Assembly: GCA_964572255.1 (NCBI GenBank) | Contig: CAZNEE010000001.1 | Coordinates: 395,587-459,586 of the forward strand | Origin: an uncultured Planctomycetia bacterium | GTDB lineage: Bacteria; Omnitrophota; Gorgyraeia; Tantalellales; Tantalellaceae | Length of the DNA: 64,000 bases | Direction of reading: 5' to 3' | Shown: positions 1 through 44,872 of the stretch, in pieces | Layout of the letters: each line of letters begins with the position of its first letter | Numbering within the stretch: position 1 is the first letter of the stretch | Translations under genes and position numbers: made by a program | The notes under the pieces: model-generated | Seen by the model: the letters and a program-made list of their open reading frames with translations, nothing else | What the model was told of the DNA's origin: nothing | Database searches by the model: none

Positions 1-658
1 AGATTCACCTCCCAGTTTCGGGTTCTTGACGCTGAATTCCATGTACGCCGCCAATATGATAATTGTCCCGGTGGACCTGAGCTATTTTTCCTTTAACGGA
101 GTTGACAGCGTTTACAGGGTGGCCAATCTTTTAGAGACAGAAACCGGCAGAAAACCTTCGGTGCATTTCGTTCTGAATGTATATGATCAACGTTCCAACT
201 TTGCAAAGAGCTTCGAACAGGATGCAAAACGCAAACTTGGGTCATCGCTTTTCTCTACAAAAATACGTTCAAGCGTAAGGGTAAGGGAAGCGGCCAAGAC
301 CGGTAAAACGATTTTTGAACATGATTCGAAATGTTCGGCAGCGCTTGATTTTTACAATCTTATCAGCGAGATCCTTACAGTGGAAGAAAAAATCTCTGAG
401 ACTATCGTGAGGGAATTCGCGCTGAACGCTCCAAAAGCGGGATCCGTATATGTTCTTGGCGATTTCAACGGCTGGAAAAAAGCGGAAGCAAACCGTCTTG
501 CTAAGGTCGAAGACGGAAAATGGTCGGCTCATTTCAACATCAAAAGAGGGACATATAAATATAAGTTTTTAGTGGATGACAAGTGGATACACGATCCGGG
601 CAATCCAGATACCGAGAAGAACAATTTCGGCACGGTGGATTCTGTTCTTAAGATATAA
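1..658 (+). CDS. ParA/MinD-like P-loop ATPase, C-terminal part, fused to a C-terminal CBM48 / AMPK-beta glycogen-binding domain (5' partial; no stop upstream in frame to position 2)
   Basis: The N-terminal part of the fragment has the ParA/Soj C-terminal pattern (IVPVDLSYFSF..VYDQRSNF..VRVREAAKTGKTIFEHD). The last ~80 aa (VYVLGDFNGWKK...KYKFLVDDKWIHDPGNPDTE..FGTVDSVLKI) match the AMPK1_CBM/CBM48 signature (GsFnnW..YKFxVDGxWxhDP..G..NNvi). The frame is open to the window edge. Confidence 0.6.
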   Translation, partial: DSPPSFGFLTLNSMYAANMIIVPVDLSYFSFNGVDSVYRVANLLETETGRKPSVHFVLNVYDQRSNFAKSFEQDAKRKLGSSLFSTKIRSSVRVREAAKTGKTIFEHDSKCSAALDFYNLISEILTVEEKISETIVREFALNAPKAGSVYVLGDFNGWKKAEANRLAKVEDGKWSAHFNIKRGTYKYKFLVDDKWIHDPGNPDTEKNNFGTVDSVLKI

Positions 659-19238: not shown

Positions 19239-20291
19239 ATGGATAAACAGATCGTATCGATGCATATTGGCTCGGGAGAGATAACGGTAGTTTCCGCTCA
19301 TTGGGCAAGGGGCGGCGAGTATGTATTGGACGGTTTTTACAGGACCGGCGCAAAAGGCTTGCGGGAAGGAGTTGTTACCGATACGAACGAGGCCATAGAT
19401 TCCATTGCCAGGTCATTAAATGGAATAAGGGGGAGAACCGGCATCAAGTTCAGGGAGGTCTATACCGGGATAACATCCCCGTCAGTGGATATGATGCCTG
19501 CCATGGGAGATGTTCTGCTGTCAAAGTACGGAAGGGAGATAAATCCCGGCGATATGAAAAAATGCGTGGAAATGGGGTCGGTGATCAAACTTCCTTTAGA
19601 GAGGGAATCTTTGCATAAGCTGGTCAGCGAATTTTATGTAGACGGAGAAAAAGGCATTAAAAATCCCGTAAATCTTGAAGCGGTAAAGCTCGGAGTGAAG
19701 ATCAATATTATAACGATAAGATCCAATATTCTGAATAATCTTATAAAATGCATAAATATGGCAGGATATCTTTCTTCAGGATTTGTTCTTTCCGGGCTTG
19801 CTTCTTCGTACAGGACGCTTACTCAGGAAGACAAAAATGAAGGGGCGGCGCTCATACGCATTTCTAAAGAGATCACGGAGATCCTCTTTTTCAATAAAGG
19901 GGTCATGACGAACTGCAAGGTCCTTGCTAAAGGCGCGGATAACATCATGGCAAGCGACAATACGATCAATGAAGATGTGCTGGGTGAACTTACATCAAGG
20001 ATCAGGCAATATCCTGAGTGGAAACAGACCAAAAGAATAGTTTTGACAGGGGAAGGATCCATGTATGAAGGCATGTTAGAGTCATGGGAAAGTTCATTGA
20101 ACTCGCCGGTGAAAATCGGGAATTGCCTTGCAAGGCCGTTCGAAAACCTGCCTGAAGACAGAATGGGTTATATCGTAAGCCTCGGCATTTTAGACCATCT
20201 TTATCGGGAAAAACAGCAAAACCGGCTCGCCAACAATCTCATCAACGGGGCATTTTACAGAGTAACGGGATTTATCGATAAGTACTTTTAA
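19239..20291 (+). CDS. ftsA: Actin-like cell division protein FtsA (short form, 350 aa)
   Basis: FtsA-type N-terminus (IVSMHIGSGEITVV...GLREGVVTDTNEAIDSIARS) and position after ftsQ. It is shorter than typical FtsA (~420 aa). Confidence 0.65.
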   Translation: MDKQIVSMHIGSGEITVVSAHWARGGEYVLDGFYRTGAKGLREGVVTDTNEAIDSIARSLNGIRGRTGIKFREVYTGITSPSVDMMPAMGDVLLSKYGREINPGDMKKCVEMGSVIKLPLERESLHKLVSEFYVDGEKGIKNPVNLEAVKLGVKINIITIRSNILNNLIKCINMAGYLSSGFVLSGLASSYRTLTQEDKNEGAALIRISKEITEILFFNKGVMTNCKVLAKGADNIMASDNTINEDVLGELTSRIRQYPEWKQTKRIVLTGEGSMYEGMLESWESSLNSPVKIGNCLARPFENLPEDRMGYIVSLGILDHLYREKQQNRLANNLINGAFYRVTGFIDKYF

Positions 20292-20310
20292 TATTGACTT
20301 TGTTTTAGAA

Positions 20311-20382
20311 GTACAGTGCATTTCCTACCAGGGCCCCTCCGCCCGGTGTGGATCCTCCCTGTACGGAAATACACTGTACTTT
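20311..20382 (+). repeat. Structured repeat family B, copy 1 (core GGGCCCCTCCGCCCGGTGTGGATCCTCCC inside a 16-bp outer stem; core-sense on plus strand)
   Basis: The 27-nt core is identical to the copies at 31412-31481 and, in reverse complement, 32625-32695. A 43-nt stretch is identical to copy 3. Outer stems co-vary between copies. The hairpin is followed by TTTT, so it may also serve as the ftsA terminator. Confidence 0.7.
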
Positions 20383-20499
20383 TGAATAAAAGTAAAGCAG
20401 AAAAGTACTTGGCGCTAGATTCCCTTTGCTATTGACATGTATATAAAATTATGCTACTTTTAACCATTAAAATTATTAATATTATAGGGAAAATATGCC

Positions 20500-21300
20500 A
20501 TGAAGAATCTTAAGTTGGGCGTTATAGGCTGCGGTAACATGGGAAGCGCAATAGTGAGGGGCGTGACCAAAAAGGGCATTATCGAAAGCGAGAACATCCT
20601 TATAAATGATGAGGATACAGATAAAGCCGCTTCTCTCGCAAGCGAAACAGGCTGCCGTTCGGCAGAGCTTCCGGATCTGGCAGGCAAGGCCGACTATTTA
20701 CTTTTTGCTGTCAAACCCCAGGATTTTGATGCTCTGGCTGACCGGATAAAGGATCAAATCTCCGGCCAGACTATAGTATCCATTATGGCGGGCGTTACTA
20801 TCGAAGCCATTACCGAAAAAATTGGGAAGGAAACACCTGTAATAAGGGCAATGCCTAACATGGCGGCATTTGCTTCTTCCGGGGTTACTTGCATCTCCTG
20901 CAATAAGCTGGTTGACGATCTTCAGGATGTGAAAGATATTTTCAGGGCCGTAGGCGAGGTGATGGAAGTTGAAGAGGATGATCTGGATGCCGTCACCGCT
21001 ATTTCCGGTTCGGGGCCTGCGTATCTGTTCTTTCTCGCGGATGCCATGATATCTGCCGGCGAAAAGTCAGGGCTAAGCAGGGAAAAGGCGGAAGAGCTTG
21101 TAAAACAAACCTTATACGGTTCGTCCGTTCTTTTAAAGGATTCGAAGGATCTGCCTTCAGAGCTTATTGGTAAGGTTGCTTCTAAAGGCGGTACTACAGA
21201 AGCGGCGCTGTCGGTTCTTAAGGACAGAGACGTGAAAGGTGCGATAATAGAGGCTGTCATAAAAGCAAAGAAAAGGTCCGAAGAATTATCCGGGAGATAA
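20500..21300 (+). CDS. proC: Pyrroline-5-carboxylate reductase ProC
   Basis: NADP-binding LKLGVIGCGNMGSAIVRG and a P5CR C-terminal dimerisation region. Confidence 0.85.
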   Translation: MKNLKLGVIGCGNMGSAIVRGVTKKGIIESENILINDEDTDKAASLASETGCRSAELPDLAGKADYLLFAVKPQDFDALADRIKDQISGQTIVSIMAGVTIEAITEKIGKETPVIRAMPNMAAFASSGVTCISCNKLVDDLQDVKDIFRAVGEVMEVEEDDLDAVTAISGSGPAYLFFLADAMISAGEKSGLSREKAEELVKQTLYGSSVLLKDSKDLPSELIGKVASKGGTTEAALSVLKDRDVKGAIIEAVIKAKKRSEELSGR

Positions 21301-28105: not shown

Positions 28106-29398
28106 ATGGACTGGAAAATAAAAAAAGCTAAGAGGTTGAATGGAGAGCTGACAGTACCTGCGGATAAAAGTATCTCGCATCGCGCTGTCATGTTCGGCTC
28201 CATAGGAAAAGGGAAATGCCGCATTGATAATTTTCTTTCAGGAGAGGACTGCATGCGTACATTCGATGCTTTTCGTGCTATGGGGGTTGATATCGAAAGA
28301 GACGGGGATACCGTCATTGTTAAGGGTAATGGTTTAAAAGGGTTAAAAGCTCCGGAAAAAGATCTTTATTTGGGCAATTCCGGCACGACTATGCGTATAA
28401 TCTCCGGCATTCTTGCGGGACAAGGTTTCGCTACAACTCTTACGGGAGATGAATCGTTATCAAAGCGTCCGATGAAGAGAATAATGGAACCGTTAACTCT
28501 TATGGGGGGAAAAATAGAAGCTTTAGAAGGAGGGGATCATGCGCCTTTAAGAATAGAAGGTACCGGCAGGCCCCTTGCTCCGATCGATCATAAAACTCCT
28601 GTGGCCAGCGCGCAGGTAAAATCCTGCATCCTCGCTGCGGGACTTTACGCTGATGGGGTTACTTCCGTGACAGAACCTTTTCAGTCCAGGGACCATACTG
28701 AAAGGATGCTTGAATATTTTTCAGCTGATATTAAAAGAGAAGGGCTTAAGACAGAGATAAAAGGATTAAAAGAACTTTCGCCTAAAGACGTGAAGATCCC
28801 GGGAGACATTTCCGGCGCGGCGTTCTTTATCGTAGCGTCTCTCATTTTGGGAGGATCAAGTATCATAATACGGAATGTAGGATTAAATTCAACGCGAAGA
28901 GGATTGTTGGATGTTCTGGAGCGCATGGGCGCCGGCATAGAGATCCTTGATGTACATGACGGGCTTGAACCGGCAGGGGACCTGGAAGTAAAAAGTTCTG
29001 CGTTAAAAGGCACAACGGTGGAAGAGGCGGAGGTCCCTCTTCTTATAGATGAGATACCGATACTTGTTATTGCCGCAGCTTTTGCCGGGGGACAAACTGT
29101 CATAAAAGGGATAAAAGAGCTGAAGGTGAAAGAGTCGGACAGGATAAGGGCCATGACAGAGAACCTGAGAGGCATGGGCGTCACTCTGGAAGAAAAAGAA
29201 AATTCCCTTATTATACACGGAGGCGCGGAGGCGCTTGAGGCTTCCGAACTTGATAGTTTTGCGGATCATCGTATCGCGATGAGCATGGCGATCGCGGCGC
29301 TTACCTCAGATGGCGAATGTGTTATCAGGAACACTGCCTGTGTTGATACTTCGTATCCCGCCTTTTTAAGCGATCTGGAAAAGCTTATTGTCCGCTAG
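28106..29398 (+). CDS. aroA: 3-phosphoshikimate 1-carboxyvinyltransferase (EPSP synthase) AroA
   Basis: LGNSGTTMR motif. 430 aa. Confidence 0.9.
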   Translation: MDWKIKKAKRLNGELTVPADKSISHRAVMFGSIGKGKCRIDNFLSGEDCMRTFDAFRAMGVDIERDGDTVIVKGNGLKGLKAPEKDLYLGNSGTTMRIISGILAGQGFATTLTGDESLSKRPMKRIMEPLTLMGGKIEALEGGDHAPLRIEGTGRPLAPIDHKTPVASAQVKSCILAAGLYADGVTSVTEPFQSRDHTERMLEYFSADIKREGLKTEIKGLKELSPKDVKIPGDISGAAFFIVASLILGGSSIIIRNVGLNSTRRGLLDVLERMGAGIEILDVHDGLEPAGDLEVKSSALKGTTVEEAEVPLLIDEIPILVIAAAFAGGQTVIKGIKELKVKESDRIRAMTENLRGMGVTLEEKENSLIIHGGAEALEASELDSFADHRIAMSMAIAALTSDGECVIRNTACVDTSYPAFLSDLEKLIVR

Positions 29399-31325
29399 AA
29401 GAAGGTTCCTCTAAAGGGAGTTCTTCTTCAGGGAGCTCCTCTACAGAAATTTCTTCTGCAGGAATAACGGGAACTTCTCCTACAGGGACAACGGGTTTGC
29501 CTTCCAATTCATTAAGCCGGGTTTGAAGATATCCCGATTTTGGATCGAGAGATATGGCCTTTTCCAAGAGGGTGATCGCTTTTTCCTTATCTCCCATTTT
29601 TAAGTGCACTTCAGCAAGAGTGTCGATAAAAGTAGGAAAGTTGTTTGACAGTTCAACTGCCCGCTCGGCGTATTTTAAAGCAGCATCTAAATTTGTCCCT
29701 TTCTGCGCGTAATCCCAGGCCAGGTTGTTCAGGGAAGCCGGCATATCCGGATTGATGGCGATAGCTTTTTCATAACAGACGATCGCATTATCCCGATCAT
29801 CTTGCTTGCCGTAAACCATTCCCAGGGATTCCCAGGCCCTGTTAAAATCGGGATATGTTGCAGTAAGTTCCACAAGCTCTTTTTTCGCCAGGTCGAGCCG
29901 GGCATTGCGAAAGTAGAGCTGCGCCAGGGTGAGCTTTACCACCTTGTTATTTGGATCTTTATCCAGGAGGTCCTTAAAAAAAGTTATCATCGAGTTTATA
30001 TCTCCGCCCTTAAACCTGACGGGCCCGAAAAGAAAATTCTTAAAATACTGTATTTTTTCTTTGGGATCCGCGCCTTTATCCAGTATTTTTATAAGTTCGG
30101 GTCTTTTTTTCTCAAGATATTCCATCAATCCGCTTTTTAATTCCGAAGCTTTTTCCGGGTTCTCGCCGGCGATATTTTTAAGTTCGTGAGGGTCATTTTC
30201 AAGATCATATAGTTCAGCTTCGGGGAGTTCGATATATTTAAAACCGTCAAGAATCAAGCCCACCACAGGCGCCCAGCCGAAGTTATAATAACCTTCCAGA
30301 GATTCAAGGTAAATAGATCTGGACCGGACTTTTTCTTCCTTTTCTTTCATGAGTTCCAGAAGACTTCCGCCGTCGAATTCTTCATCCGCATAGCTGATAT
30401 TGATAATATCCAGGATCGTGGGGGCAATATCCGGATTTGAAGCAGGGGTCTTGATCTTTTTGGCTTTAAGATCTTCCGGGAACTTTATGATGAGAGGGAC
30501 TCTTACAGTCGCATCATACAGAAATATACCGTGAGTCGGTTCCCCGTGTTCATTTAGACTTTCACCGCTTGTCGCGGTGAATATTATGATAGTGTTGTCG
30601 CTCAGGCCTAATTTCTCTATTCCGTCCAGAAGTTTCGAAACTTCGTCATCTAACAGCAAAATTTGCCTGTCATAAGGAAAATCGTCTTTCGCCTTTTCAA
30701 AAGTTTCAGGCACCTTGTAGGGGAATTGGGGGATAGGGTAGCTTACCCATATAAATGCGGGATCTCCTTTTTCGTTAGATTCCTTAAGTATTTCCAGCAC
30801 GCCATCTGTCAATTTATTCCAGCGTTCGGGAAGTTCTTCCTGGGGGAGATCTTCCATGACACCTTCAAATAGGTCAAATTCCTTATCATATCCAAATCTT
30901 TTCATGAAAGTAGTGTTAAGCATAACCGCGGCTCTGGTATATTCTTTTGTTTTTAAATATTTTCCCAAAGTGTTATAAGAATCATCAAGATCAAAAGCAT
31001 CTCCGCGTTTGGAAATGACCGAACCGCCGTTTTTCCCGCTAAAGATCGTCGCATAACTATAAAAAGGAACGGGGGCGTTGCAGTATACATTTTCAAATAA
31101 AACACCGTTCTCTGCAAGTTTGTCTATGGATCCTGTTTTTACATGCTCATAACCGTAAGAGCTCAAGTGGTCCGGTCGTAAGGAGCCTGCGGTTATCAGG
31201 AGGATGTTCGGTTTATCATATGAGACTCTAACTTTAGAAGGTATCTTTGAGTAGAGGAATACGGCGGCAGAGATGACCGCCACGATCAGAATTATAATAA
31301 AGATAGTTTTTAAAAGTTTGCCCAT
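29385..31325 (-). CDS. Sulfatase-like (alkaline-phosphatase superfamily) membrane-anchored protein with C-terminal TPR repeats
   Basis: N-terminal TM (MGKLLKTIFIIILIVAVISAAVF), then PNILLITAGSLRPDHLSSYGY and LAENGVLFENVY, which resemble the sulfatase N-terminal region. The canonical C/S-x-P-x-R motif is not obvious. The C-terminal ~200 aa are TPR repeats ending in a Pro/Glu-rich tail. The start is placed at ATG 31325 with an AAGGGGGGAG RBS; the ORF-track start at 31478 reads through repeat B. Confidence 0.7.
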   Translation of the reverse strand: MGKLLKTIFIIILIVAVISAAVFLYSKIPSKVRVSYDKPNILLITAGSLRPDHLSSYGYEHVKTGSIDKLAENGVLFENVYCNAPVPFYSYATIFSGKNGGSVISKRGDAFDLDDSYNTLGKYLKTKEYTRAAVMLNTTFMKRFGYDKEFDLFEGVMEDLPQEELPERWNKLTDGVLEILKESNEKGDPAFIWVSYPIPQFPYKVPETFEKAKDDFPYDRQILLLDDEVSKLLDGIEKLGLSDNTIIIFTATSGESLNEHGEPTHGIFLYDATVRVPLIIKFPEDLKAKKIKTPASNPDIAPTILDIINISYADEEFDGGSLLELMKEKEEKVRSRSIYLESLEGYYNFGWAPVVGLILDGFKYIELPEAELYDLENDPHELKNIAGENPEKASELKSGLMEYLEKKRPELIKILDKGADPKEKIQYFKNFLFGPVRFKGGDINSMITFFKDLLDKDPNNKVVKLTLAQLYFRNARLDLAKKELVELTATYPDFNRAWESLGMVYGKQDDRDNAIVCYEKAIAINPDMPASLNNLAWDYAQKGTNLDAALKYAERAVELSNNFPTFIDTLAEVHLKMGDKEKAITLLEKAISLDPKSGYLQTRLNELEGKPVVPVGEVPVIPAEEISVEELPEEELPLEEPSSSGQ

Positions 31326-31411
31326 TTCTCCCCCCTTAATTGTTGATACATTGTGTATACCATAAAAGGCGATGCGAGTCAAATAGTTGATGAGAATCTC
31401 AATATTAAAGT

Positions 31412-31481
31412 GAGTGGTAGGTACCTTTCGTGGGCCCCTCCGCCCGGTGTGGATCCTCCCACTCAAGGCACCTACCACTCG
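31412..31481 (+). repeat. Structured repeat family B, copy 2 (core-sense on plus strand)
   Basis: The identical 27-nt core GGGCCCCTCCGCCCGGTGTGGATCCTCCC. The outer stem is different but still self-complementary: GAGTGGTAGGTACC / GGCACCTACCACTC. Confidence 0.7.
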
Positions 31482-31542
31482 CTTTAATTAAGAAGATCCA
31501 CTGCTCGCTTCGATGGCGGGTGAAAAAGATCATGAAAAAATT

Positions 31543-31572
31543 TGACAATGGAAAATTATATGGCATACTTTA
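31543..31572 (+). promoter_or_regulatory. Candidate sigma70 promoter driving the riboswitch leader
   Basis: TTGACA, a 16-17 nt spacer, then CATACT/ATACTT. Located about 40 bp upstream of the aptamer. Confidence 0.35.
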
Positions 31573-31599
31573 AGAGATAGCAAAGTAAGATTAGAAATG

Positions 31600-31700
31600 T
31601 GTTTTTATTACGAATCGTAAACCATTCGAAAGAGTGGGGCACAAAGCCAGGGGGCGTAAGGCCGGCCGGCTACCGTTTTAACACTGTCGTAAAGTGTTGA
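31600..31700 (+). ncRNA. c-di-GMP-I (GEMM) riboswitch aptamer
   Basis: AAACCATTCGAAAGAGTGGG at 31619-31638 is identical over 20 nt to the P2 hairpin of the Vibrio cholerae Vc2 GEMM-I aptamer. GCACAAAGCC at 31639-31648 is the Vc2 ACGCAAAGCC motif with its first two bases swapped. A GGCGTAAGG tetraloop-receptor-like P3 follows. It sits in a ~200-nt leader. Confidence 0.65.
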
Positions 31701-31728
31701 TTGGGAAAACCCATTCTTTTGGATTTAT

Positions 31729-31760
31729 GTCCCAACCTTACGATAGGTTGGGTTTTTGTT
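31729..31760 (+). terminator. Intrinsic terminator acting as riboswitch expression platform
   Basis: CCCAACC (31731-37), loop TTACGATA, GGTTGGG (31746-52), then TTTTTGTTTATT. It lies immediately 5' of the AGGAGA RBS and ATG of the downstream gene. Confidence 0.6.
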
Positions 31761-31776
31761 TATTAGGAGACTGAAG

Positions 31777-32397
31777 ATGAAAGAAACATGCGATCTTATC
31801 ATTATATTGCTGATGACTATACTGCTCGGGGGTGTTGCGTTCGCGTCCGAAAGTAAACCGGATCTGTACGAGATCACCGGTTACGAAGGAACGCAAGGGA
31901 TCGTTTCATCAGATTATGAAAAGTTAAATACTACAAAAGCGGAAACTGTTTTTCAGATACTGTTGGAAGACGCGGGCTATTGCGACGAAAATATTTTTGG
32001 TATTTACAGTTTTACTGATATTGATGGGATGATAACTGTGGATGTTATGCATCAAATATTCAAAGGGACAGATGCCCCGGGTAGTGAGAAAAACATCTAC
32101 CCCGGGATAAATTCTGAGATAGGGTTTTATCTCACAACACCGCAAGGCTATACGTATTATAGCCATACGTCTTTGAATCCCGATCGAGAGCAGCACATGC
32201 TGCTGTTCTCTTATTCTGATGTCAGCGATTCTGAGAGTTTTGTTGTTGCATGTGAGGACCTGTATGGTTTGGGTGACTGCGATTATAATGATCTTGTTGT
32301 TAAAGCAAGCGACGTACAAGGCAATCCCGAACCGGCTACAATATTATCGTTCTTCCTAGCCGGACTTGGTCTGGCATTTAGAAAAATGAGAAAATAA
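31777..32397 (+). CDS. Secreted PEP-CTERM protein (exosortase substrate), riboswitch-controlled
   Basis: Signal peptide MKETCDLIIILLMTILLGGVAFA. The C-terminal NPEPATILSFFLAGLGLAFRKMRK has PEP followed by a TM helix and a basic cluster. An internal EDLYGLGDCDYNDLVV motif is DUF4114-like. Confidence 0.6.
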   Translation: MKETCDLIIILLMTILLGGVAFASESKPDLYEITGYEGTQGIVSSDYEKLNTTKAETVFQILLEDAGYCDENIFGIYSFTDIDGMITVDVMHQIFKGTDAPGSEKNIYPGINSEIGFYLTTPQGYTYYSHTSLNPDREQHMLLFSYSDVSDSESFVVACEDLYGLGDCDYNDLVVKASDVQGNPEPATILSFFLAGLGLAFRKMRK

Positions 32398-32417: not shown

Positions 32418-32456
32418 AAAAGCCCGCTATGCAAAAGCATAGCGGGCTTTATTATT
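32418..32456 (+). terminator. Rho-independent terminator
   Basis: AAAGCCCGCTATGC-AAAA-GCATAGCGGGCTTT forms a perfect 14-bp stem, followed by ATTATT. Confidence 0.65.
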
Positions 32457-32516
32457 CAGTTGGTTCACAAAAGAAAAAGAAGATTCTTTTCCCCTGAGAA
32501 TTATTAATTATAAACA

Positions 32517-32575
32517 GCCGTTTAAACTATTTCTCGCAGGGACGTCAAAATTTCCCAGCGAGAAACAGTTCAAAC
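32517..32575. repeat. Palindromic repeat family A, copy 2 (extended stem CCGTTTAAACTATTTCTCGC...GCGAGAAACAGTTCAAACGG)
   Basis: It shares the core CTCGCAGGGACGTCAAAAT(T)TCCCAGCGAG with 9113-9160. The stem bases are co-varying. Confidence 0.6.
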
Positions 32576-32624
32576 GGCCGTAATAATGGATAATGTCAAA
32601 TATCTCGCTGATTTTGCTTTTTAA

Positions 32625-32695
32625 AGTGCAGTATGTTTCCGTACAGGGAGGATCCACACCGGGCGGAGGGGCCCTGGTAGGAAATATACTGCACT
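32625..32695 (-). repeat. Structured repeat family B, copy 3 (core on minus strand)
   Basis: Its reverse complement is identical to copy 1 over a 43-nt stretch. The outer stem differs at two base pairs, both with compensatory changes (A-T to G-C, and G-C to A-T). Confidence 0.7.
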
Positions 32696-32750
32696 TCTGA
32701 ATAAACATAAAGTCAGAATTTTTTTTGACATTATGCCTCAACGAATGTTA

Positions 32751-40971: not shown

Positions 40972-41421
40972 GTGATACTGAAAAGACAATTGGATGAAAG
41001 GCTCGGGGAAATACTTATCCGCAACGGCAATATTTCTGATGAGCAGCTGGGCAAGGCGCTGGATCTCCAGAAACGCGAAGGCGGGCTTCTGGGCGAAGTC
41101 CTTTCGAAGCTTGGTTATGTAAAGGAACTGGAGATCGTTCAGGCGCTTACCGCGCAATACGGGTTTCCGTACATTCCGCTGGAAAATTATGAATTGAACA
41201 AAAAGTGCGCGGAAATAGTTTCCGAAGATCTTGCCAGGCAGCATAATCTTGTTCCGCTTGATGTGATCGGGGGCCTGTTGACGGTCGCGATGTCTAATCC
41301 GCTGAACAAAAAGTCGATCGAGGAGACAGAGTCGCTTACGGGAAAAAAGATCCAGATCTTCATATCCACTGCTTCATCGATAAATGATTCTATCAATGAA
41401 CTCTATAGGAAAGAAGAATAA
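40972..41421 (+). CDS. Standalone MshEN (c-di-GMP-binding) plus GspE-N1 domain protein, with no ATPase domain
   Basis: Two canonical 24-aa MshEN motifs are separated by a 5-aa spacer: RLGEILIRNGNISDEQLGKALDLQ, then KREGG, then LLGEVLSKLGYVKELEIVQALTAQ. A T2SSE_N-like fold follows. GTG start with an AAAAGGAG RBS. Confidence 0.65.
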   Translation: MILKRQLDERLGEILIRNGNISDEQLGKALDLQKREGGLLGEVLSKLGYVKELEIVQALTAQYGFPYIPLENYELNKKCAEIVSEDLARQHNLVPLDVIGGLLTVAMSNPLNKKSIEETESLTGKKIQIFISTASSINDSINELYRKEE

Positions 41422-43139
41422 TGACAGACTCATTGCCGGGCAAAATATGTGATTTTCTTATAAAGAACAACCTTGTCACGGAAGAGGACCTTAACAAGTC
41501 CCGCGAGATATGCAAGGAGCAGGGCGGGAGTCTGGGCGATGTCCTGGTGAAGATGAACGCTCTTTCAAGGGAAGATCTTCTGACCGCGATGAGCGAAGGT
41601 CTGGGTTTTGCCCCGCTTGATCTGTCACGTTTCAATATTGACGAGGGAGTCATCAAACTTATCCCGCAAAAGATCTGTCAACGCCATCAGGTGCTTCCCG
41701 TCTCCAGGATCGGGAATATCCTTACTGTCGCTATGGTCGATCCGATGAATATATCGGCTCTTGATGACATAAAAGCTATCACCAAGATGGAAGTGGTGCA
41801 GGTGGTAGTCGATCAGGACAACATGCGGGAAGCTATCAGCAAATATTTCGAAAGATCCGCGAATGAAGAGATAAGCGAGATCATGGGCGATATAAGGACC
41901 TCGCAGATGGAGATGGTTACCGAATCGGATGAGGATGTCAGCTCCAGCGAACTTTTGCGCAGCGCTGAAGAAGCTCCGGTCGTAAAACTTACCAATCTCA
42001 TATTAAGCCGTGCGGTAAAAGACGGAGCCAGCGATATACTTATTGAGCCGATGGATAAGACCGCAAGAGTAAGGTATCGCATAGACGGCGTGCTCAGGGA
42101 AAATATGGAACCCCCAAAAAAACTTCACAGAGCCATAGTATCCCGCCTTAAGGTCATGTCGAATCTCAATATTGCGGAAAGAAGGCTGCCTCAGGACGGA
42201 CGCTTTAAAATACGGATAGAGAACAGGCGCGTGGATTTCAGGGTTTCCGTGATACCGTCCAGCATGGGGGAGAAGATCGCTTTACGTATTCTTGATAAAG
42301 CTCAGGCGACGCTGGATGTTGACAAGCTTGGGTTCAGCGAAGACGGAAAAAAGAAGCTCATCAGAGCTTCCTCAAAGCCACACGGAATGATCTTGGTGTG
42401 CGGTCCCACAGGCTGCGGTAAAACGACCACACTTTATTCGATAATGAATTACATAGATTCTCCCGAGCTGAATCTGGTTACGGTAGAAGATCCCGTAGAA
42501 TATGAACTGAAAGGCGTGAACCAGGTTTCCGTAAAGGAGGATATGGGCCTGACCTTCGCCGCCTGTTTGCGTTCTATTCTTAGGCAGGACCCGGATATTA
42601 TTTTGGTAGGAGAGATAAGAGATCTGGAGACCGTTGACACAGCTATCAAATCCGCGTTAACGGGGCACCTTGTACTCAGCACTTTACACACGAATACCGC
42701 CAGCGGTTCTATTGTAAGGCTTGTTAATATGGGAGTGGAGCCGTTTTTGATATCTTCATCGGTCGAGCTTGTCGCGGCACAGGCGCTTTTAAGAAGATTA
42801 TGTCCGGATTGCAAGGAAGCATATACGCCCGCAAAGGAGATCGCCGACAGGTATAAACTTTTTGATGAGAGCGGGGGAATTGCGAAAATTTATAAGCCGA
42901 AAGGCTGTAAGAACTGCGGTGATACCGGATATCAGGGCCGCGAAGGCATAATTGAATGCTTGGAGTTGACGCCCACTATCAAAGAACTTATTTTCCGGAG
43001 AGCCGAGGAACTCGAAATTGAAAGAACCGCGAAAAAAGAGGGCATGTCCACGTTAAGGCAGAACGGCATCGCAAAAGTACTTAAAGGCATTACATCGCTC
43101 GAAGAAGTATTAAGGGTCACGATGGAAGACAGAGGGTAA
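41421..43139 (+). CDS. pilB: Type IV pilus assembly ATPase PilB/GspE paralog 1
   Basis: Walker A LVCGPTGCGKTTT and a C-terminal tetracysteine (CPDC...CKNCGDTG). The N-terminal MshEN-like motifs are degenerate. Confidence 0.85.
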   Translation: MTDSLPGKICDFLIKNNLVTEEDLNKSREICKEQGGSLGDVLVKMNALSREDLLTAMSEGLGFAPLDLSRFNIDEGVIKLIPQKICQRHQVLPVSRIGNILTVAMVDPMNISALDDIKAITKMEVVQVVVDQDNMREAISKYFERSANEEISEIMGDIRTSQMEMVTESDEDVSSSELLRSAEEAPVVKLTNLILSRAVKDGASDILIEPMDKTARVRYRIDGVLRENMEPPKKLHRAIVSRLKVMSNLNIAERRLPQDGRFKIRIENRRVDFRVSVIPSSMGEKIALRILDKAQATLDVDKLGFSEDGKKKLIRASSKPHGMILVCGPTGCGKTTTLYSIMNYIDSPELNLVTVEDPVEYELKGVNQVSVKEDMGLTFAACLRSILRQDPDIILVGEIRDLETVDTAIKSALTGHLVLSTLHTNTASGSIVRLVNMGVEPFLISSSVELVAAQALLRRLCPDCKEAYTPAKEIADRYKLFDESGGIAKIYKPKGCKNCGDTGYQGREGIIECLELTPTIKELIFRRAEELEIERTAKKEGMSTLRQNGIAKVLKGITSLEEVLRVTMEDRG

Positions 43140-43162
43140 TTTAAAAAATAAAGGCAAAAAAG

Positions 43163-44872
43163 ATGAGTACATCTATAAGAAGCAGGATATTGAAGGCGAT
43201 CGAAAAGAGCGAATTTGTAGACAAGAATCGCTATCAGAATTTCCTGAACAAGAGCAAGGGAGGGAAGGAAGAGGATATCCTTAGGAGCCTTGTTGAGGAG
43301 GATGTTATTTCCGCGCAGAACCTGCTTACGGTATTGAGCGAAGAATTGGGCCTTCCCGCGATAGATGTATCTAAGATAGAACTTGATGATTCTGCGATGA
43401 GGACGATACCGGAACGCCTCGTGAGAAAATACAAAATTATACCCCTTTCACGCATCGGAAATTCACTCACTCTTGTCGTGTCAGATCCGACCGATGTCAT
43501 GGCTATCGACGATGTGCGCACCATAACAGGGTGCGAGATCAGTTTAGTTATTGCCGATCAGGCTGATCTGGAGAAAAAATTACTTTCGTATTACGAAGGC
43601 GAAGAGGATGATATTACCGACATCATTGACGAGGAAGCCGAAAGCGATGATATCGAGGTTTTGGGAAGATCGGAAAATCTTGATGTAGCGGATATTACCA
43701 AGAAAAGCAAGCAGGCGCCGATAGTCAAGATGGTGAACCTTATAATAAGCGAGGCCTTGAAGAACAGGGCAAGTGATATACACGTCGAGCCTCAGGAAAA
43801 ATCGGTAAGGATAAGGAACAGGATAGACGGCGCGCTTCAGGAAGCTTTTGATCTTCCGAAGAAGAACCAGAACGCGGTCATAGCGAGACTTAAGATCATG
43901 TCAAATCTTGACATAACGGAGAACCGGGTGCCTCAGGACGGCAGGTTCAGGATAAACATGGACGGAAGGGATATAGATTTTCGTGTATCGATCCTTCCCT
44001 GCAGGTTCGGCAATAAGATCGTTTTAAGAGCGTTGGATAAGAGCGGCCTTTCTTTCGGGCTGGAAACTTTGGGATTCCTTCCTGATACAATGAATGATTT
44101 CAAGCAGGCTCTTTCCAAACCGTTCGGGATCATACTTGTGACAGGGCCTACCGGAAGCGGGAAATCAACGACTCTTTATTCTGTCCTTAACGAAATGAAT
44201 GTGCCGGAGAGAAATATTGTTACCATTGAAGATCCCGTCGAGTATCAGGTGCAGGGCATAACCCAGATACCGGCTCGCCCGGACATAGGGCTCAATTTCG
44301 CGAGCGGCTTAAGATCGGTTTTGCGCCAGAGCCCCGATGTCATAATGGTCGGAGAGATCAGGGATTATGAGACGGCGGATATAGCGATCAAAGCTTCGCT
44401 TACGGGTCACATGGTCCTCAGCACTTTACATACCAACGACGCTGTGGGAGCGATCACGCGTTTGGTCAACATGGGAGTGGAGCCTTTTCTCATCGCTTCA
44501 AGTCTTGTTATGGCATGCGCCCAGAGGCTTCTCCGCAAGATCTGTCCGCATTGCAAAGTTAAAGCGGATCTTCCAAAAGAAGTATTAAGTGGTCTGAGAG
44601 AGAAGTATCCTGATATAATGGAACAGACAGATACGTTTTACAAAGGCAAGGGGTGCCAGAAATGCAACGATACCGGTTATCTGGGGCGTTTCGCGACTTT
44701 AGAAACAGTGCTGGTCGATGAGAAGATAAATGGAATGATCAACCGGAAAAAGTCTGAAGAAGAGATCAAAAAATACCTCAGATCAAAAGGTGTCAGGACG
44801 CTTCGTGAAAACGCGCTGATAAAATTCTGTAAAGGCTGGACGACTTACGAAGAGGTTTTAAGGGTAACTTAA
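43163..44872 (+). CDS. pilB: Type IV pilus assembly ATPase PilB/GspE paralog 2
   Basis: Walker A LVTGPTGSGKSTT and a tetracysteine (CPHC...CQKCNDTG). The N-terminal GspE_N domain lacks the RLG motif. Confidence 0.85.
   Translation: MSTSIRSRILKAIEKSEFVDKNRYQNFLNKSKGGKEEDILRSLVEEDVISAQNLLTVLSEELGLPAIDVSKIELDDSAMRTIPERLVRKYKIIPLSRIGNSLTLVVSDPTDVMAIDDVRTITGCEISLVIADQADLEKKLLSYYEGEEDDITDIIDEEAESDDIEVLGRSENLDVADITKKSKQAPIVKMVNLIISEALKNRASDIHVEPQEKSVRIRNRIDGALQEAFDLPKKNQNAVIARLKIMSNLDITENRVPQDGRFRINMDGRDIDFRVSILPCRFGNKIVLRALDKSGLSFGLETLGFLPDTMNDFKQALSKPFGIILVTGPTGSGKSTTLYSVLNEMNVPERNIVTIEDPVEYQVQGITQIPARPDIGLNFASGLRSVLRQSPDVIMVGEIRDYETADIAIKASLTGHMVLSTLHTNDAVGAITRLVNMGVEPFLIASSLVMACAQRLLRKICPHCKVKADLPKEVLSGLREKYPDIMEQTDTFYKGKGCQKCNDTGYLGRFATLETVLVDEKINGMINRKKSEEEIKKYLRSKGVRTLRENALIKFCKGWTTYEEVLRVT

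What the first reader, a model, noticed from the sequence alone, without database searches (positions are those of the whole stretch)
31777..32397. Riboswitch-controlled secreted PEP-CTERM protein with DUF4114-like motif
The 206-aa product has a signal peptide and a C-terminal PEP-CTERM sorting signal: PEP, then the TM helix ATILSFFLAGLGLAF, then RKMRK. This implies an exosortase system elsewhere in the genome. Pairing this protein class with a GEMM riboswitch is uncommon and suggests a c-di-GMP-regulated surface or matrix protein. An acidic motif, EDLYGLGDCDYNDLVV, resembles the DUF4114 calcium-binding signature.
Basis: partly seen in the sequence, partly recalled or inferred. Interest (0 to 1): 0.55.

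Follow-up and report, generated by a model that had tools for sequence, protein, structure and literature searches.

The report
c-di-GMP riboswitch-gated secreted lectin-like PEP-CTERM protein
A cyclic-di-GMP-class riboswitch sits in front of a small secreted, calcium-lectin-like surface protein with a PEP-CTERM sorting tail in an uncultivated Omnitrophota bacterium; all parts are real but each is a known kind, so it is a tidy, moderately interesting example rather than a new system.

Summary
The ORF at 31777-32397 encodes 206 aa with an AFA|S signal peptide. It matches DUF4114 (36 bits, cut-off 27). Its PEP-CTERM tail passes TIGR02595 (18.5 vs 16) but narrowly misses Pfam (18.1 vs 20.7).

A GEMM-I aptamer (RF01051, 48.3 bits vs 35) lies at 31606-31677. 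It follows a sigma70-like promoter and precedes an intrinsic terminator and the RBS.

New here:
- The source is a Candidatus Omnitrophota genome.
- The predicted fold matches LecB/PA-IIL Ca-dependent lectins. The acidic motif aligns residue for residue with LecB's Ca loop.
- The family is large (441 clusters at 1e-30). It is normally under sigma54/PrsK-PrsR control: 25 of 32 relatives have a -24/-12 element, against 2.8% of shuffles. Only this lineage and Desulfonema limicola carry the riboswitch.
- The aptamer has C, not G or A, at ligand-contact position 20, so the ligand is probably, but not certainly, c-di-GMP.

Not resolved: the switch polarity, and whether this genome has an exosortase (none in the 64 kb). 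c-di-GMP riboswitches before PEP-CTERM genes are already recorded (Methylophaga GP59).

Verdict: a new member of a known kind.

The parts
31542..31569 (+). Sigma70-like promoter: TTGACA, 16-nt spacer, TG-extended CATACT. The predicted transcription start is near 31576-31578.
   Evidence: Consensus scan, 10 of 12 matches plus the TG extension. It is 100% conserved in L007. No sigma54 -24/-12 element occurs in the 400 nt upstream of the gene, unlike in most relatives. Function is inferred, not shown.
31606..31677 (+). GEMM-I (c-di-GMP-I class) riboswitch aptamer. The first hairpin is 31622-31637 with a GAAA tetraloop at 31628-31631. The equivalents of ligand-contact positions are C31616 (Vc2 G20), A31643 (A47) and C31673 (C92). 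The short P1 is 31610-31612 paired with 31674-31676.
   Evidence: RF01051 at 48.3 bits against gathering 35, E 2.2e-6, full-length model match 1-87. The sequence is identical in L007 and L001. Position numbering follows PMC6140456.
31710..31724 (+). Anti-aptamer strand. It forms 15 consecutive pairs (3 of them G-U) with 31624-31638, which is the 5' side, loop and 3' side of the aptamer's first hairpin.
   Evidence: It is present in the unconstrained MFE of the leader (-67.4 kcal/mol, z -4.5). It forms co-transcriptionally from about nt 31722 in the model.
31731..31757 (+). Intrinsic terminator of the expression platform: CCCAACCU / UACGAU loop / AGGUUGGG, then UUUUU.
   Evidence: Terminator scan: 8 pairs, 5 of them GC, followed by a T-run. 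It is formed in every full-length fold.
31765..31770 (+). Ribosome-binding site AGGAGA, 6 nt before the ATG.
   Evidence: Read directly from the sequence. L007 has AGGAGG at the same place.
31777..32397 (+). CDS of 206 aa: a secreted protein with a LecB-like / DUF4114 domain and a PEP-CTERM tail.
   Evidence: ORF. Homologs: 15 by the word-indexed search, and 441 representative clusters at E<=1e-30. AF2 model: mean pLDDT 72.5, with 70-92 over most of residues ~31-180.
31777..31845 (+). Signal peptide, residues 1-23, with predicted cleavage at AFA|SE.
   Evidence: Sequence inspection. A23 is invariant in alignment A1. The model shows an N-terminal helix at residues 3-17. No SignalP run was available.
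32149..32304 (+). DUF4114 Pfam match, residues 125-176. It includes the Ca-loop motif E160-D161...G166-D167-x-D169-Y-N171-D172-L-V-V (nt 32254-32301).
   Evidence: PF13448 at 36 bits against 27. hhalign places window residues 163-178 on LecB residues 95-110, so D167/D169/N171/D172 correspond to LecB D99/D101/N103/D104. The LecB sequence was verified against PDB 1OUR.
32326..32394 (+). PEP-CTERM sorting domain, residues 184-206: PEP, the TM helix ATILSFFLAGLGLAF, then RKMRK.
   Evidence: TIGR02595 at 18.5 against 16. PF07589 at 18.1 against 20.7. PEP is invariant in the family. It is the only PEP-CTERM-like tail among all ORFs of the window.
32419..32450 (+). The gene's own terminator-like hairpin: 14-bp perfect stems AAAGCCCGCUAUGC / GCAUAGCGGGCUUU, followed by a U-rich tail. 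It makes the unit monocistronic.
   Evidence: Inverted repeat I6, 100% complementary. It is conserved in L007 with one change in the loop.

Best explanation
This is a self-contained, monocistronic unit in a Candidatus Omnitrophota chromosome. It lies between a divergently oriented sulfatase-TPR gene (beyond it, aroA) and mreBCD-mrdA-rodA.

Regulation. A sigma70-like promoter drives a leader of about 200 nt. Its GEMM-I aptamer binds a cyclic dinucleotide, most likely c-di-GMP. Ligand binding decides whether RNA polymerase stops at the intrinsic terminator 31731-31757 or reads into the gene. Without ligand, segment 31710-31724 invades the aptamer's first hairpin and the terminator forms. My preferred polarity is an ON switch, where ligand allows read-through (about 60:40). 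This polarity is inferred, not shown.

Product. The protein is exported by Sec and held in the inner membrane by its PEP-CTERM helix. It is then presumably cleaved at PEP by an exosortase and released to the cell surface or exopolysaccharide matrix. Its single domain has the LecB/PA-IIL beta-sandwich fold with a conserved two-calcium loop. It most likely acts as a Ca-dependent carbohydrate-binding (lectin or matrix cross-linking) protein.

Evolution. Compared with its relatives, this lineage has exchanged the family's usual sigma54/PrsK-PrsR control for a sigma70 promoter plus a riboswitch.

Shown: the aptamer, the terminator, the domains, the fold similarity, and the family-wide sigma54 pattern. 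Inferred: the ligand, the polarity, exosortase processing, and sugar binding.
For: Leader elements:
- Aptamer above the Rfam gathering score.
- Promoter-like site and terminator.
- Anti-aptamer helix and a leader fold with z -4.5.
- Leader 100% identical across independent samples, while the flanking DNA varies.

Conservation of the pairing:
- A GEMM-I-clan aptamer also precedes the 34%-identical Desulfonema limicola homolog. That gene heads a GNVR / Tyr-kinase-like / Bac_transf / Poly_export EPS locus.

Protein:
- DUF4114 and TIGR02595 hits.
- Invariant PEP and Ca-loop residues.
- The top 12 Foldseek PDB hits are all LecB-family lectins, E 7.5e-5 to 9e-4, TM 0.58-0.68 normalised on the target.
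- The motif aligns with the LecB Ca loop.
- DUF4114 was proposed as a Ca-dependent sugar-binding module in PilY1.1 (PMC9109919).

Family context:
- Relatives lie next to PrsK (545 bits), PrsR (642 bits), the PEP-CTERM-system CAAX-like protein and further PEP-CTERM paralogs.
- A sigma54 -24/-12 element is present in 25 of 32 relatives, against 2.8% of shuffles, and is absent from the window.
- Three MshEN (c-di-GMP receptor type) domains occur in the window's pilus cluster, so c-di-GMP signalling in this organism is plausible.

Polarity:
- In the nascent-transcript model (to 31744), the terminator's 5' arm is sequestered when the aptamer is locked. It is half free when the aptamer is not locked.
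Against: - Position 20 of the aptamer is C, not G (c-di-GMP) or A (cGAMP).
- The distal half of P2, where the tetraloop receptor normally lies, is deleted in the alignment.
- Equilibrium folding forms the terminator whether or not the aptamer is locked. No convincing anti-terminator was found.
- The Desulfonema leader model leans weakly the other way, with the RBS less accessible when the aptamer is excluded.
- No exosortase, EPS gene or second PEP-CTERM protein occurs in 64 kb.
- The Pfam PEP-CTERM score is below gathering.
- There is no sequence-level match to any solved lectin. The hhalign probability is only 7% because the aligned stretch is 16 residues.
- The model's mean pLDDT is only 72.5.
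Confidence: 0.62

Rival explanations
1. Orphan tail. The gene was acquired horizontally by an Omnitrophota genome that has no exosortase. The PEP-CTERM segment then works only as a C-terminal inner-membrane anchor, and the lectin-like domain stays tethered in the periplasm.
For: - All close relatives are from Desulfobacterota or Gammaproteobacteria-type MAGs, while the host is Omnitrophota.
- The gene has the lowest CAI of 44 genes in the window, and its GC3 z-score is -1.75.
- It is a lone PEP-CTERM gene with no EPS or exosortase neighbours.
- Its PEP-CTERM score is weaker than in relatives: below the Pfam gathering score, with PF07589 not precomputed for P0001 and P0002.
- The unit is bracketed by turnover-prone palindromic elements.
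Against: - PEP, the TM helix and the basic cluster are all intact, and TIGR02595 is passed.
- The tail is conserved between strain variants.
- The composition deviation is under 2 sd.
- Only 64 kb of a contig of at least 527 kb was visible.
Confidence: 0.2
2. The aptamer senses a ligand other than c-di-GMP, for example 3',3'-cGAMP or another cyclic dinucleotide. The reason would be that the Galpha-reading nucleotide is C instead of G.
For: - C31616 aligns with Vc2 G20.
- A single change at this position (G20A) switches or broadens specificity to cGAMP (PMC6140456).
- The Desulfonema aptamer scores best with a variant model, RF03167, at threshold (59.6 against 59).
Against: - A47 and C92 equivalents are canonical.
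- G20 and C92 are reported to be less conserved than A47, and mutants retain binding with reduced affinity (PMC9049102).
- My inference from triplex chemistry: a protonated C can present the same amino and imino donors to the Hoogsteen edge of G. This is analogous to the protonated A20 shown in PMC6140456.
- The Desulfonema aptamer has G at position 20 and A at position 47.
Confidence: 0.15
3. The riboswitch is decoupled from the gene. The leader would always terminate at 31757, giving a short stand-alone RNA. The gene would then be expressed from elsewhere or hardly at all.
For: The terminator forms in all equilibrium models, with or without a locked aptamer.
Against: - No credible promoter lies between the terminator and the ATG. 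The next promoter-like sites are inside the ORF.
- The aptamer-terminator-RBS-ATG arrangement is the standard attenuator layout.
- The leader is perfectly conserved together with the gene.
- The same aptamer-gene pairing occurs in Desulfonema.
Confidence: 0.05

Closest known systems
c-di-GMP riboswitches upstream of PEP-CTERM / VPLPA-CTERM genes in Methylophaga nitratireducenticrescens GP59 (PMC12530212)
   Same: A c-di-GMP-class riboswitch lies directly in front of a gene for a PEP-CTERM sorting-domain protein. The setting is exopolysaccharide and biofilm biology.
   Different: - There, four riboswitch-gene pairs are clustered within 18 kb, next to EPS biosynthesis and export genes in a gammaproteobacterium. 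Here there is a single isolated unit between housekeeping clusters in Omnitrophota.
- The passenger domain here is DUF4114/LecB-like.
- The aptamer here has C at position 20.
GEMM-I riboswitches Vc2 (Vibrio cholerae), Cd1 (Clostridioides difficile, OFF) and Geobacter GEMM-Ib (cGAMP, ON)
   Same: - The same Rfam family or clan.
- A first hairpin almost identical to that of Vc2 (AAACCAUUCGAAAGAGUGGG). The Vc2 sequence is recalled from my own knowledge.
- A47 and C92 equivalents are present.
- The expression platform is terminator-based, as in Cd1 and the Geobacter pilM switch (PMC9262584, listed).
   Different: - Position 20 is C, where c-di-GMP switches have G and cGAMP switches have A.
- P2 is truncated.
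- P1 is only about 3 bp.
- The alternative helix attacks the first hairpin rather than P1.
- The polarity is unknown.
PrsK/PrsR-RpoN-controlled PEP-CTERM genes, e.g. the floc protein PepA of Zoogloea and Aquincola (PMC9850573; Haft 2006, PMC1569441)
   Same: - A small secreted protein with a PEP-CTERM tail, presumably sorted by exosortase XrtA into the EPS matrix.
- Relatives of this protein sit beside PrsK, PrsR and the PEP-CTERM-system CAAX-like protein, and carry -24/-12 promoters.
   Different: - In this lineage the sigma54 promoter is absent and a sigma70-like promoter plus riboswitch takes its place. Desulfonema has both.
- The passenger domain is unrelated to PepA.
LecB / PA-IIL family lectins (Pseudomonas aeruginosa LecB, RS-IIL, CV-IIL, BclA, BC2L-C C-terminal domain)
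   Same: - The predicted beta-sandwich fold (Foldseek E 7.5e-5 to 9e-4).
- The D-x-D-Y-N-D-x-V-V calcium loop.
   Different: - There is no detectable overall sequence similarity.
- The domain here is about 155 aa with insertions, against 114 aa.
- The loop has three extra residues after the E-D pair.
- LecB uses its C-terminal Gly carboxylate at the Ca site, whereas here the chain continues into a linker and the PEP-CTERM tail.
- LecB has no signal peptide or sorting tail (my own knowledge).
DUF4114 domain of Myxococcus xanthus PilY1.1 (PMC9109919)
   Same: The same Pfam family. A Ca-binding Asp is required for function, and the domain is proposed to bind exopolysaccharide.
   Different: There it is an N-terminal module of a large pilus-tip protein. 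Here it is the whole mature protein and is coupled to PEP-CTERM sorting.

Membership tests
GEMM-I / c-di-GMP-I riboswitch (Rfam RF01051) | Covariance-model score at or above the curated gathering score | tested here: met
   48.3 bits against 35, E 2.2e-6, model positions 1-87 of 87.
GEMM-I / c-di-GMP-I riboswitch (Rfam RF01051) | First hairpin capped by a GNRA tetraloop, plus the intercalating adenine A47 | tested here: met
   GAAA at 31628-31631. A31643 aligns with A47. A47 is described as universally conserved (PMC9049102).
GEMM-I / c-di-GMP-I riboswitch (Rfam RF01051) | Tetraloop receptor in the second hairpin (P2) | tested here: inconclusive
   About 15 consensus positions of distal P2 are deleted in the cmscan alignment. 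The remaining P2 (31645-31671) folds as a short hairpin. Whether a docking site remains cannot be judged from sequence.
GEMM-I / c-di-GMP-I riboswitch (Rfam RF01051) | G20 (reads Galpha) and C92 (pairs with Gbeta) for c-di-GMP specificity | tested here: not met
   The C92 equivalent, C31673, is present. The G20 equivalent is C31616 (roles from PMC6140456). This lowers confidence in c-di-GMP specificity. It does not lower membership of the structural family.
GEMM-I / c-di-GMP-I riboswitch (Rfam RF01051) | Ligand binding and ligand-dependent gene control | not testable with these tools
   This needs in-line probing or ITC and transcription assays.
PEP-CTERM sorting domain (TIGR02595 / PF07589; Haft 2006) | HMM score above the curated cut-off | tested here: met
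   TIGR02595 at 18.5 against 16. Pfam PF07589 at 18.1 against 20.7 is just below. 13 of 15 family members carry PF07589 in the precomputed table, including 12 of the 13 more distant relatives.
PEP-CTERM sorting domain (TIGR02595 / PF07589; Haft 2006) | Pro-Glu-Pro, then a hydrophobic helix of about 14 residues, then a basic cluster, at the extreme C-terminus | tested here: met
   PEP at 184-186, ATILSFFLAGLGLAF, RKMRK, then the stop codon. Criteria are from PMC1569441.
PEP-CTERM sorting domain (TIGR02595 / PF07589; Haft 2006) | N-terminal signal peptide and no internal TM segment | tested here: met
   By inspection: hydrophobic core at residues 7-23 and an AFA|S site, with A23 invariant. The model shows only beta strands between residues 28 and 180. 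SignalP was not available.
PEP-CTERM sorting domain (TIGR02595 / PF07589; Haft 2006) | Cognate exosortase (EpsH/XrtA family) in the same genome | not testable with these tools
   None in the 64-kb window. The rest of the contig (at least 527 kb) and genome could not be fetched. Indirect support: relatives lie next to PrsK, PrsR and the PEP-CTERM-system CAAX-like protein.
PEP-CTERM sorting domain (TIGR02595 / PF07589; Haft 2006) | Several PEP-CTERM paralogs per genome, often near EPS genes | tested here: inconclusive
   There is only one PEP-CTERM tail and no EPS genes in the window. Relatives have adjacent paralogs. The Desulfonema homolog heads an EPS locus.
DUF4114 (Pfam PF13448) | HMM score above the gathering score | tested here: met
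   36 bits against 27, residues 125-176, profile positions 30-81 of 85.
LecB / PA-IIL Ca-dependent lectins | Fold | tested here: met
   The top 12 Foldseek PDB hits are all from this family. E 7.5e-5 to 9e-4, probability 1.00, TM 0.58-0.68 on the target. The query model has a moderate pLDDT of 72.5.
LecB / PA-IIL Ca-dependent lectins | Calcium-coordinating loop E95, D99, D101, N103, D104 (ligand roles are my own knowledge of the LecB structures) | tested here: met
   D167, D169, N171 and D172 align with D99, D101, N103 and D104. E160 and D161 lie three residues further upstream than E95. E160, D161, G166, D167 and D172 are invariant, and D169 is at least 90% conserved.
LecB / PA-IIL Ca-dependent lectins | Sequence-level family membership | tested here: not met
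   Neither the profile nor the single sequence finds any lectin in the PDB at E<=10. So I describe it as 'works like / folds like LecB', not as a member of that family.
LecB / PA-IIL Ca-dependent lectins | Ca-dependent binding of fucose or mannose | not testable with these tools
   This needs recombinant protein, ITC and a glycan array.

The most novel reading that the evidence does not exclude
The unit would be a portable 'riboswitch + matrix lectin' cassette that entered an Omnitrophota genome by horizontal transfer. In doing so it replaced the family's enhancer-dependent sigma54/PrsKR control with a self-contained RNA sensor. Its unusual C20 aptamer would read the ligand through a protonated cytosine. 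That would give either pH-dependent c-di-GMP sensing or specificity for a different cyclic dinucleotide.
Probability: 0.1. Interest if true: 0.6.

Novelty: new member of a known kind. Interest (0 to 1): 0.4.

Why it matters
Four points would matter if the reading is correct.

1. It gives a concrete, testable function, a Ca-dependent matrix or surface lectin, to a large uncharacterised family of small DUF4114 + PEP-CTERM proteins (441 clusters at 50% identity).

2. It links that family to cyclic-di-GMP control in two lineages.

3. It offers a natural example of one gene family governed either by sigma54/PrsK-PrsR, by a riboswitch, or by both. That is useful for studying how regulatory modules are exchanged.

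4. It provides a natural GEMM-I variant with a pyrimidine at the Galpha-reading position, and a first handle on c-di-GMP signalling and surface biology in the uncultivated phylum Omnitrophota.

None of these overturns current understanding.

Tried and rejected
1. Switch polarity. I tried unconstrained folds, aptamer-locked folds, co-transcriptional folds and nascent-transcript folds, plus an RBS-accessibility comparison with the Desulfonema leader. The terminator forms at equilibrium in both states. The hints conflict: the window's nascent model leans ON and the Desulfonema RBS model leans OFF. I also considered an attenuator-style scheme in which GAUUGGGA (31699-31706) pairs with the terminator's 5' arm while the anti-aptamer helix stands. 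I rejected it because it needs a pseudoknot whose 5-nt loop would have to span a 15-bp helix.

2. The riboswitch as a family trait. Rejected. No GEMM hit occurs in 6 genome loci, 38 metagenome loci or L004, L006 and L008.

3. Sequence-level link to solved structures. None was found. Only the fold search and a short profile alignment connect the protein to LecB.

4. Finding the source genome or an exosortase. The genome-collection scan did not return the source contig. The encoding-contig look-up returned only a 946-bp Logan contig. The held literature has nothing on exosortases in Omnitrophota.

5. Clear-cut horizontal transfer from composition. The gene lies only at the low edge, with z about -1.7 to -1.9. 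I do not claim it.

6. The flanking 29-nt-core palindromes as cassette ends or a phage-derived element. There is no match in viral contigs. A third copy sits 11 kb away, next to unrelated genes. I treat them as a genome-wide repeat family, not as part of the unit.

7. The first attempt at search for related loci, using the 15-sequence alignment, failed for lack of a conserved stretch. I repeated it with 7 sequences.
Full report
OBSERVATION

The ORF reported at 31777-32397 is real. It runs from ATG 31777 to TAA 32395-32397 and encodes 206 aa. An AGGAGA site lies 6 nt upstream of the ATG.

The N-terminus is MKETCDLIIILLMTILLGGVAFA|SE. The C-terminus is N-PEP-ATILSFFLAGLGLAF-RKMRK.

HMM tests gave these results:
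- DUF4114 (PF13448): 36 bits, gathering 27, residues 125-176.
- PEP-CTERM TIGR02595: 18.5 bits, cut-off 16, a pass.
- Pfam PF07589: 18.1 bits, gathering 20.7, a narrow miss.

A scan of the whole window against Rfam gave a single gathering-level hit. It is c-di-GMP-I (RF01051) at 31606-31677, with 48.3 bits against 35 and E 2.2e-6.

ANATOMY OF THE UNIT

Reading from 5' to 3', the unit contains:
- A sigma70-like promoter, TTGACA-16-TGxCATACT, at 31542-31569.
- The aptamer at 31606-31677.
- A small hairpin at 31678-31700.
- A 15-nt segment, 31710-31724, that is fully complementary (3 G-U pairs) to the aptamer's first hairpin at 31624-31638.
- A canonical intrinsic terminator, CCCAACCU-loop-AGGUUGGG-UUUUU, at 31731-31757.
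- The RBS, then the ATG.
- After the stop codon, a perfect 14-bp hairpin at 32419-32450.

The unit is therefore monocistronic.

The leader folds far better than shuffled sequence (z -4.5). The stretch from the promoter to the RBS is 100% identical on an independent metagenome contig (L007). On that contig the surrounding intergenic DNA is rearranged.

THE APTAMER IN DETAIL

I used the Vc2 numbering as explained in PMC6140456.
- The intercalating A47 corresponds to A31643.
- The Gbeta-pairing C92 corresponds to C31673.
- The Galpha-reading position 20 is C31616.

c-di-GMP switches have G at position 20, and cGAMP-sensing GEMM-Ib switches have A. Position 20 is reported to be less conserved than A47, and mutants retain binding with lower affinity (PMC9049102).

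By analogy with the protonated A20 shown in PMC6140456, a protonated cytosine could offer the same donor pair to the Hoogsteen edge of G. This is my inference.

The distal part of P2 is missing.

I therefore call the RNA a member of the GEMM-I structural family. c-di-GMP is the probable but unproven ligand.

POLARITY

Equilibrium models form the terminator whether or not the aptamer is locked.

Three observations bear on the direction:
- Without ligand, the model shows the anti-aptamer helix plus a formed terminator. That is a default-off leader.
- In a nascent-transcript model truncated at 31744, the terminator's 5' arm is sequestered only when the aptamer is locked.
- The independent Desulfonema leader shows slightly lower RBS accessibility when its aptamer is excluded.

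The first two favour an ON switch. The third favours OFF. I commit to ON at about 60:40 and mark it as unresolved.

THE PROTEIN

A word-indexed search found 15 homologs, almost all with DUF4114 + PEP-CTERM and 230-260 aa long.

The exhaustive profile search found 441 representative clusters at E<=1e-30 and 2,458 at 1e-10. The listed top hits are nearly all 220-270 aa. This is a large, unstudied family, and the window's member is a shortened one. It lacks about 30 residues in the middle.

An AlphaFold2 model has mean pLDDT 72.5, with 70-92 over most of the core. It is a beta-sandwich.

The 12 best PDB matches are all Ca-dependent fucose/mannose lectins of the LecB/PA-IIL family: CV-IIL, PA-IIL, RS-IIL, BclA and the BC2L-C C-terminal domain. 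E-values run from 7.5e-5 to 9e-4.

A profile alignment places window 163-178 (YGLGDCDYNDLVVKAS) on LecB 95-110 (EDGTDNDYNDAVVVIN). I verified my recalled LecB sequence against PDB 1OUR. D167, D169, N171 and D172 thus correspond to LecB's Ca ligands D99, D101, N103 and D104. These residues and E160/D161 are invariant or nearly so in the family.

There is no overall sequence similarity to the lectins. I therefore say it folds and probably works like LecB, not that it belongs to that family.

This agrees with the published proposal that DUF4114 in PilY1.1 is a Ca-dependent sugar-binding module (PMC9109919).

CONTEXT AND SOURCE

All named relatives of the window's IleRS are Candidatus Omnitrophota. 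The best non-self identity is 71%.

The unit lies between two groups of genes.
- Upstream: a dcw cluster (mraW, ftsI, murE/F, mraY, murD, ftsW, murG, murC, ftsQ, ftsA-like), then proC, ileS, lspA, lgt, rluD, aroA and a divergent sulfatase-TPR gene.
- Downstream: mreBCD-mrdA-rodA, followed by a type IV pilus cluster.

The 64 kb contain no exosortase, no EPS gene and no second PEP-CTERM tail. The rest of the genome could not be reached, so the exosortase prediction remains untested.

The gene's composition is at the low edge of the window. GC3 has z -1.75, and CAI is the lowest of 44 genes. This is compatible with foreign origin but does not prove it.

COMPARATIVE EVIDENCE ON REGULATION

The 34%-identical homolog in Desulfonema limicola also has a GEMM-I-clan aptamer about 70 nt upstream. 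It heads an EPS export locus.

No other relative has one. I checked 6 genome loci, 38 metagenome loci and three further contigs.

Relatives on long contigs instead lie next to three markers of the XrtA system, and next to further PEP-CTERM paralogs:
- PrsK (TIGR02916): 545 bits against 300.
- PrsR (TIGR02915): 642 bits against 503.
- The PEP-CTERM-system CAAX-like protein (TIGR03008).

25 of 32 non-redundant relatives carry a sigma54-type -24/-12 element (TGGCAC-N5-TTGC, at most 2 mismatches) within 400 nt upstream. Only 2.8% of shuffled upstream regions do.

The window has no such element. Desulfonema has one upstream of its aptamer.

The family norm is therefore sigma54/PrsKR control. Desulfonema adds a riboswitch, and the Omnitrophota lineage has a sigma70-like promoter plus a riboswitch.

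COMPARISON WITH WHAT IS KNOWN

c-di-GMP riboswitches directly upstream of PEP-CTERM and VPLPA-CTERM genes beside EPS genes are already tabulated for Methylophaga nitratireducenticrescens GP59 (PMC12530212). The pairing is thus not new in kind. Within this particular family it is rare.

GEMM-I switches of both polarities with terminators are known (PMC9262584, listed). PEP-CTERM features and the EpsH link are as defined by Haft et al. 2006 (PMC1569441).

VERDICT

The work here adds:
- the LecB-like fold and Ca loop;
- the Omnitrophota source;
- the sigma54-to-riboswitch regulatory contrast;
- the non-canonical C at position 20.

It is a new member of a known kind, with an interest of about 0.4.

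Noticed in passing
window 20304-20386, 31404-31488, 32624-32696: Three long, very stable hairpin elements (-37 to -50 kcal/mol, z -6 to -9). All share an invariant 29-nt apex, GGGCCCCTCCGCCCGGTGTGGATCCTCCC; 0 copies are expected by chance. The stems differ between copies by compensatory changes, and copy B has unrelated stem sequences. Two copies bracket the riboswitch-gene unit in inverted orientation. All three are intergenic. There is no Rfam hit and no match in viral contigs. The pattern looks like a genome-specific REP/MITE-like palindromic family or a structured RNA.
   Followed up: partly
window 31404-31525 versus L007 121-210: L007 is a strain variant that is otherwise about 99% identical. 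At this position its palindromic element is in the opposite orientation. Its stems differ from the window's by C>T and G>A transitions, two of them fully compensated. The window also keeps an extra partial stem copy (about 31509-31525). This points to element replacement, inversion or gene conversion at a hot spot.
   Followed up: partly
window 32515-32583 versus L007: This is a second long hairpin (-33.4 kcal/mol, z -9) downstream of the gene's terminator. L007 has an 82-bp insertion at its apex and better-matched stems. The window's stem mismatches are A-C on the + strand, which would be G-U on the - strand.
   Followed up: no
window 40972-44872: Three consecutive genes in the type IV pilus cluster carry MshEN domains: one stand-alone 149-aa protein and two PilB-like ATPases. 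From my own knowledge, MshEN is a c-di-GMP-binding domain. This suggests c-di-GMP also controls pilus assembly in this organism.
   Followed up: no
window 19239-21300: The dcw cluster ends with ftsQ and a short FtsA-like gene (350 aa, with only the SHS2_FTSA domain detected). It is followed by a palindromic element and proC. No ftsZ lies at the usual position. I did not check whether ftsZ lies elsewhere.
   Followed up: no
L016 3001-3711 and L017 509-1219: The closest non-self relatives by the N-terminal domain (40% identity) end in ...VPIPGAALLLGSGLMGLAGFRRLLAR. That is a Pro-Ile-Pro-Gly variant in place of PEP. They also lack the sigma54 element. They may use a different sorting-signal subtype.
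   Followed up: no
L002 4784-4933 (Desulfonema limicola CP061799): A sigma54-type -24/-12 element (TGGCAC-N5-ATGC) lies about 58 nt upstream of the GEMM-I-clan aptamer of the homologous gene. This implies stacked control by an enhancer-binding protein and a riboswitch. The aptamer scores at threshold with the variant model RF03167 (59.6 against 59) but has the canonical G20 and A47.
   Followed up: partly
window 29388-31325 (- strand): The divergent neighbour is a membrane-anchored sulfatase fused to a long TPR region, with an acidic, proline-rich C-terminus. It may also act on surface glycans, but it was not examined further.
   Followed up: no
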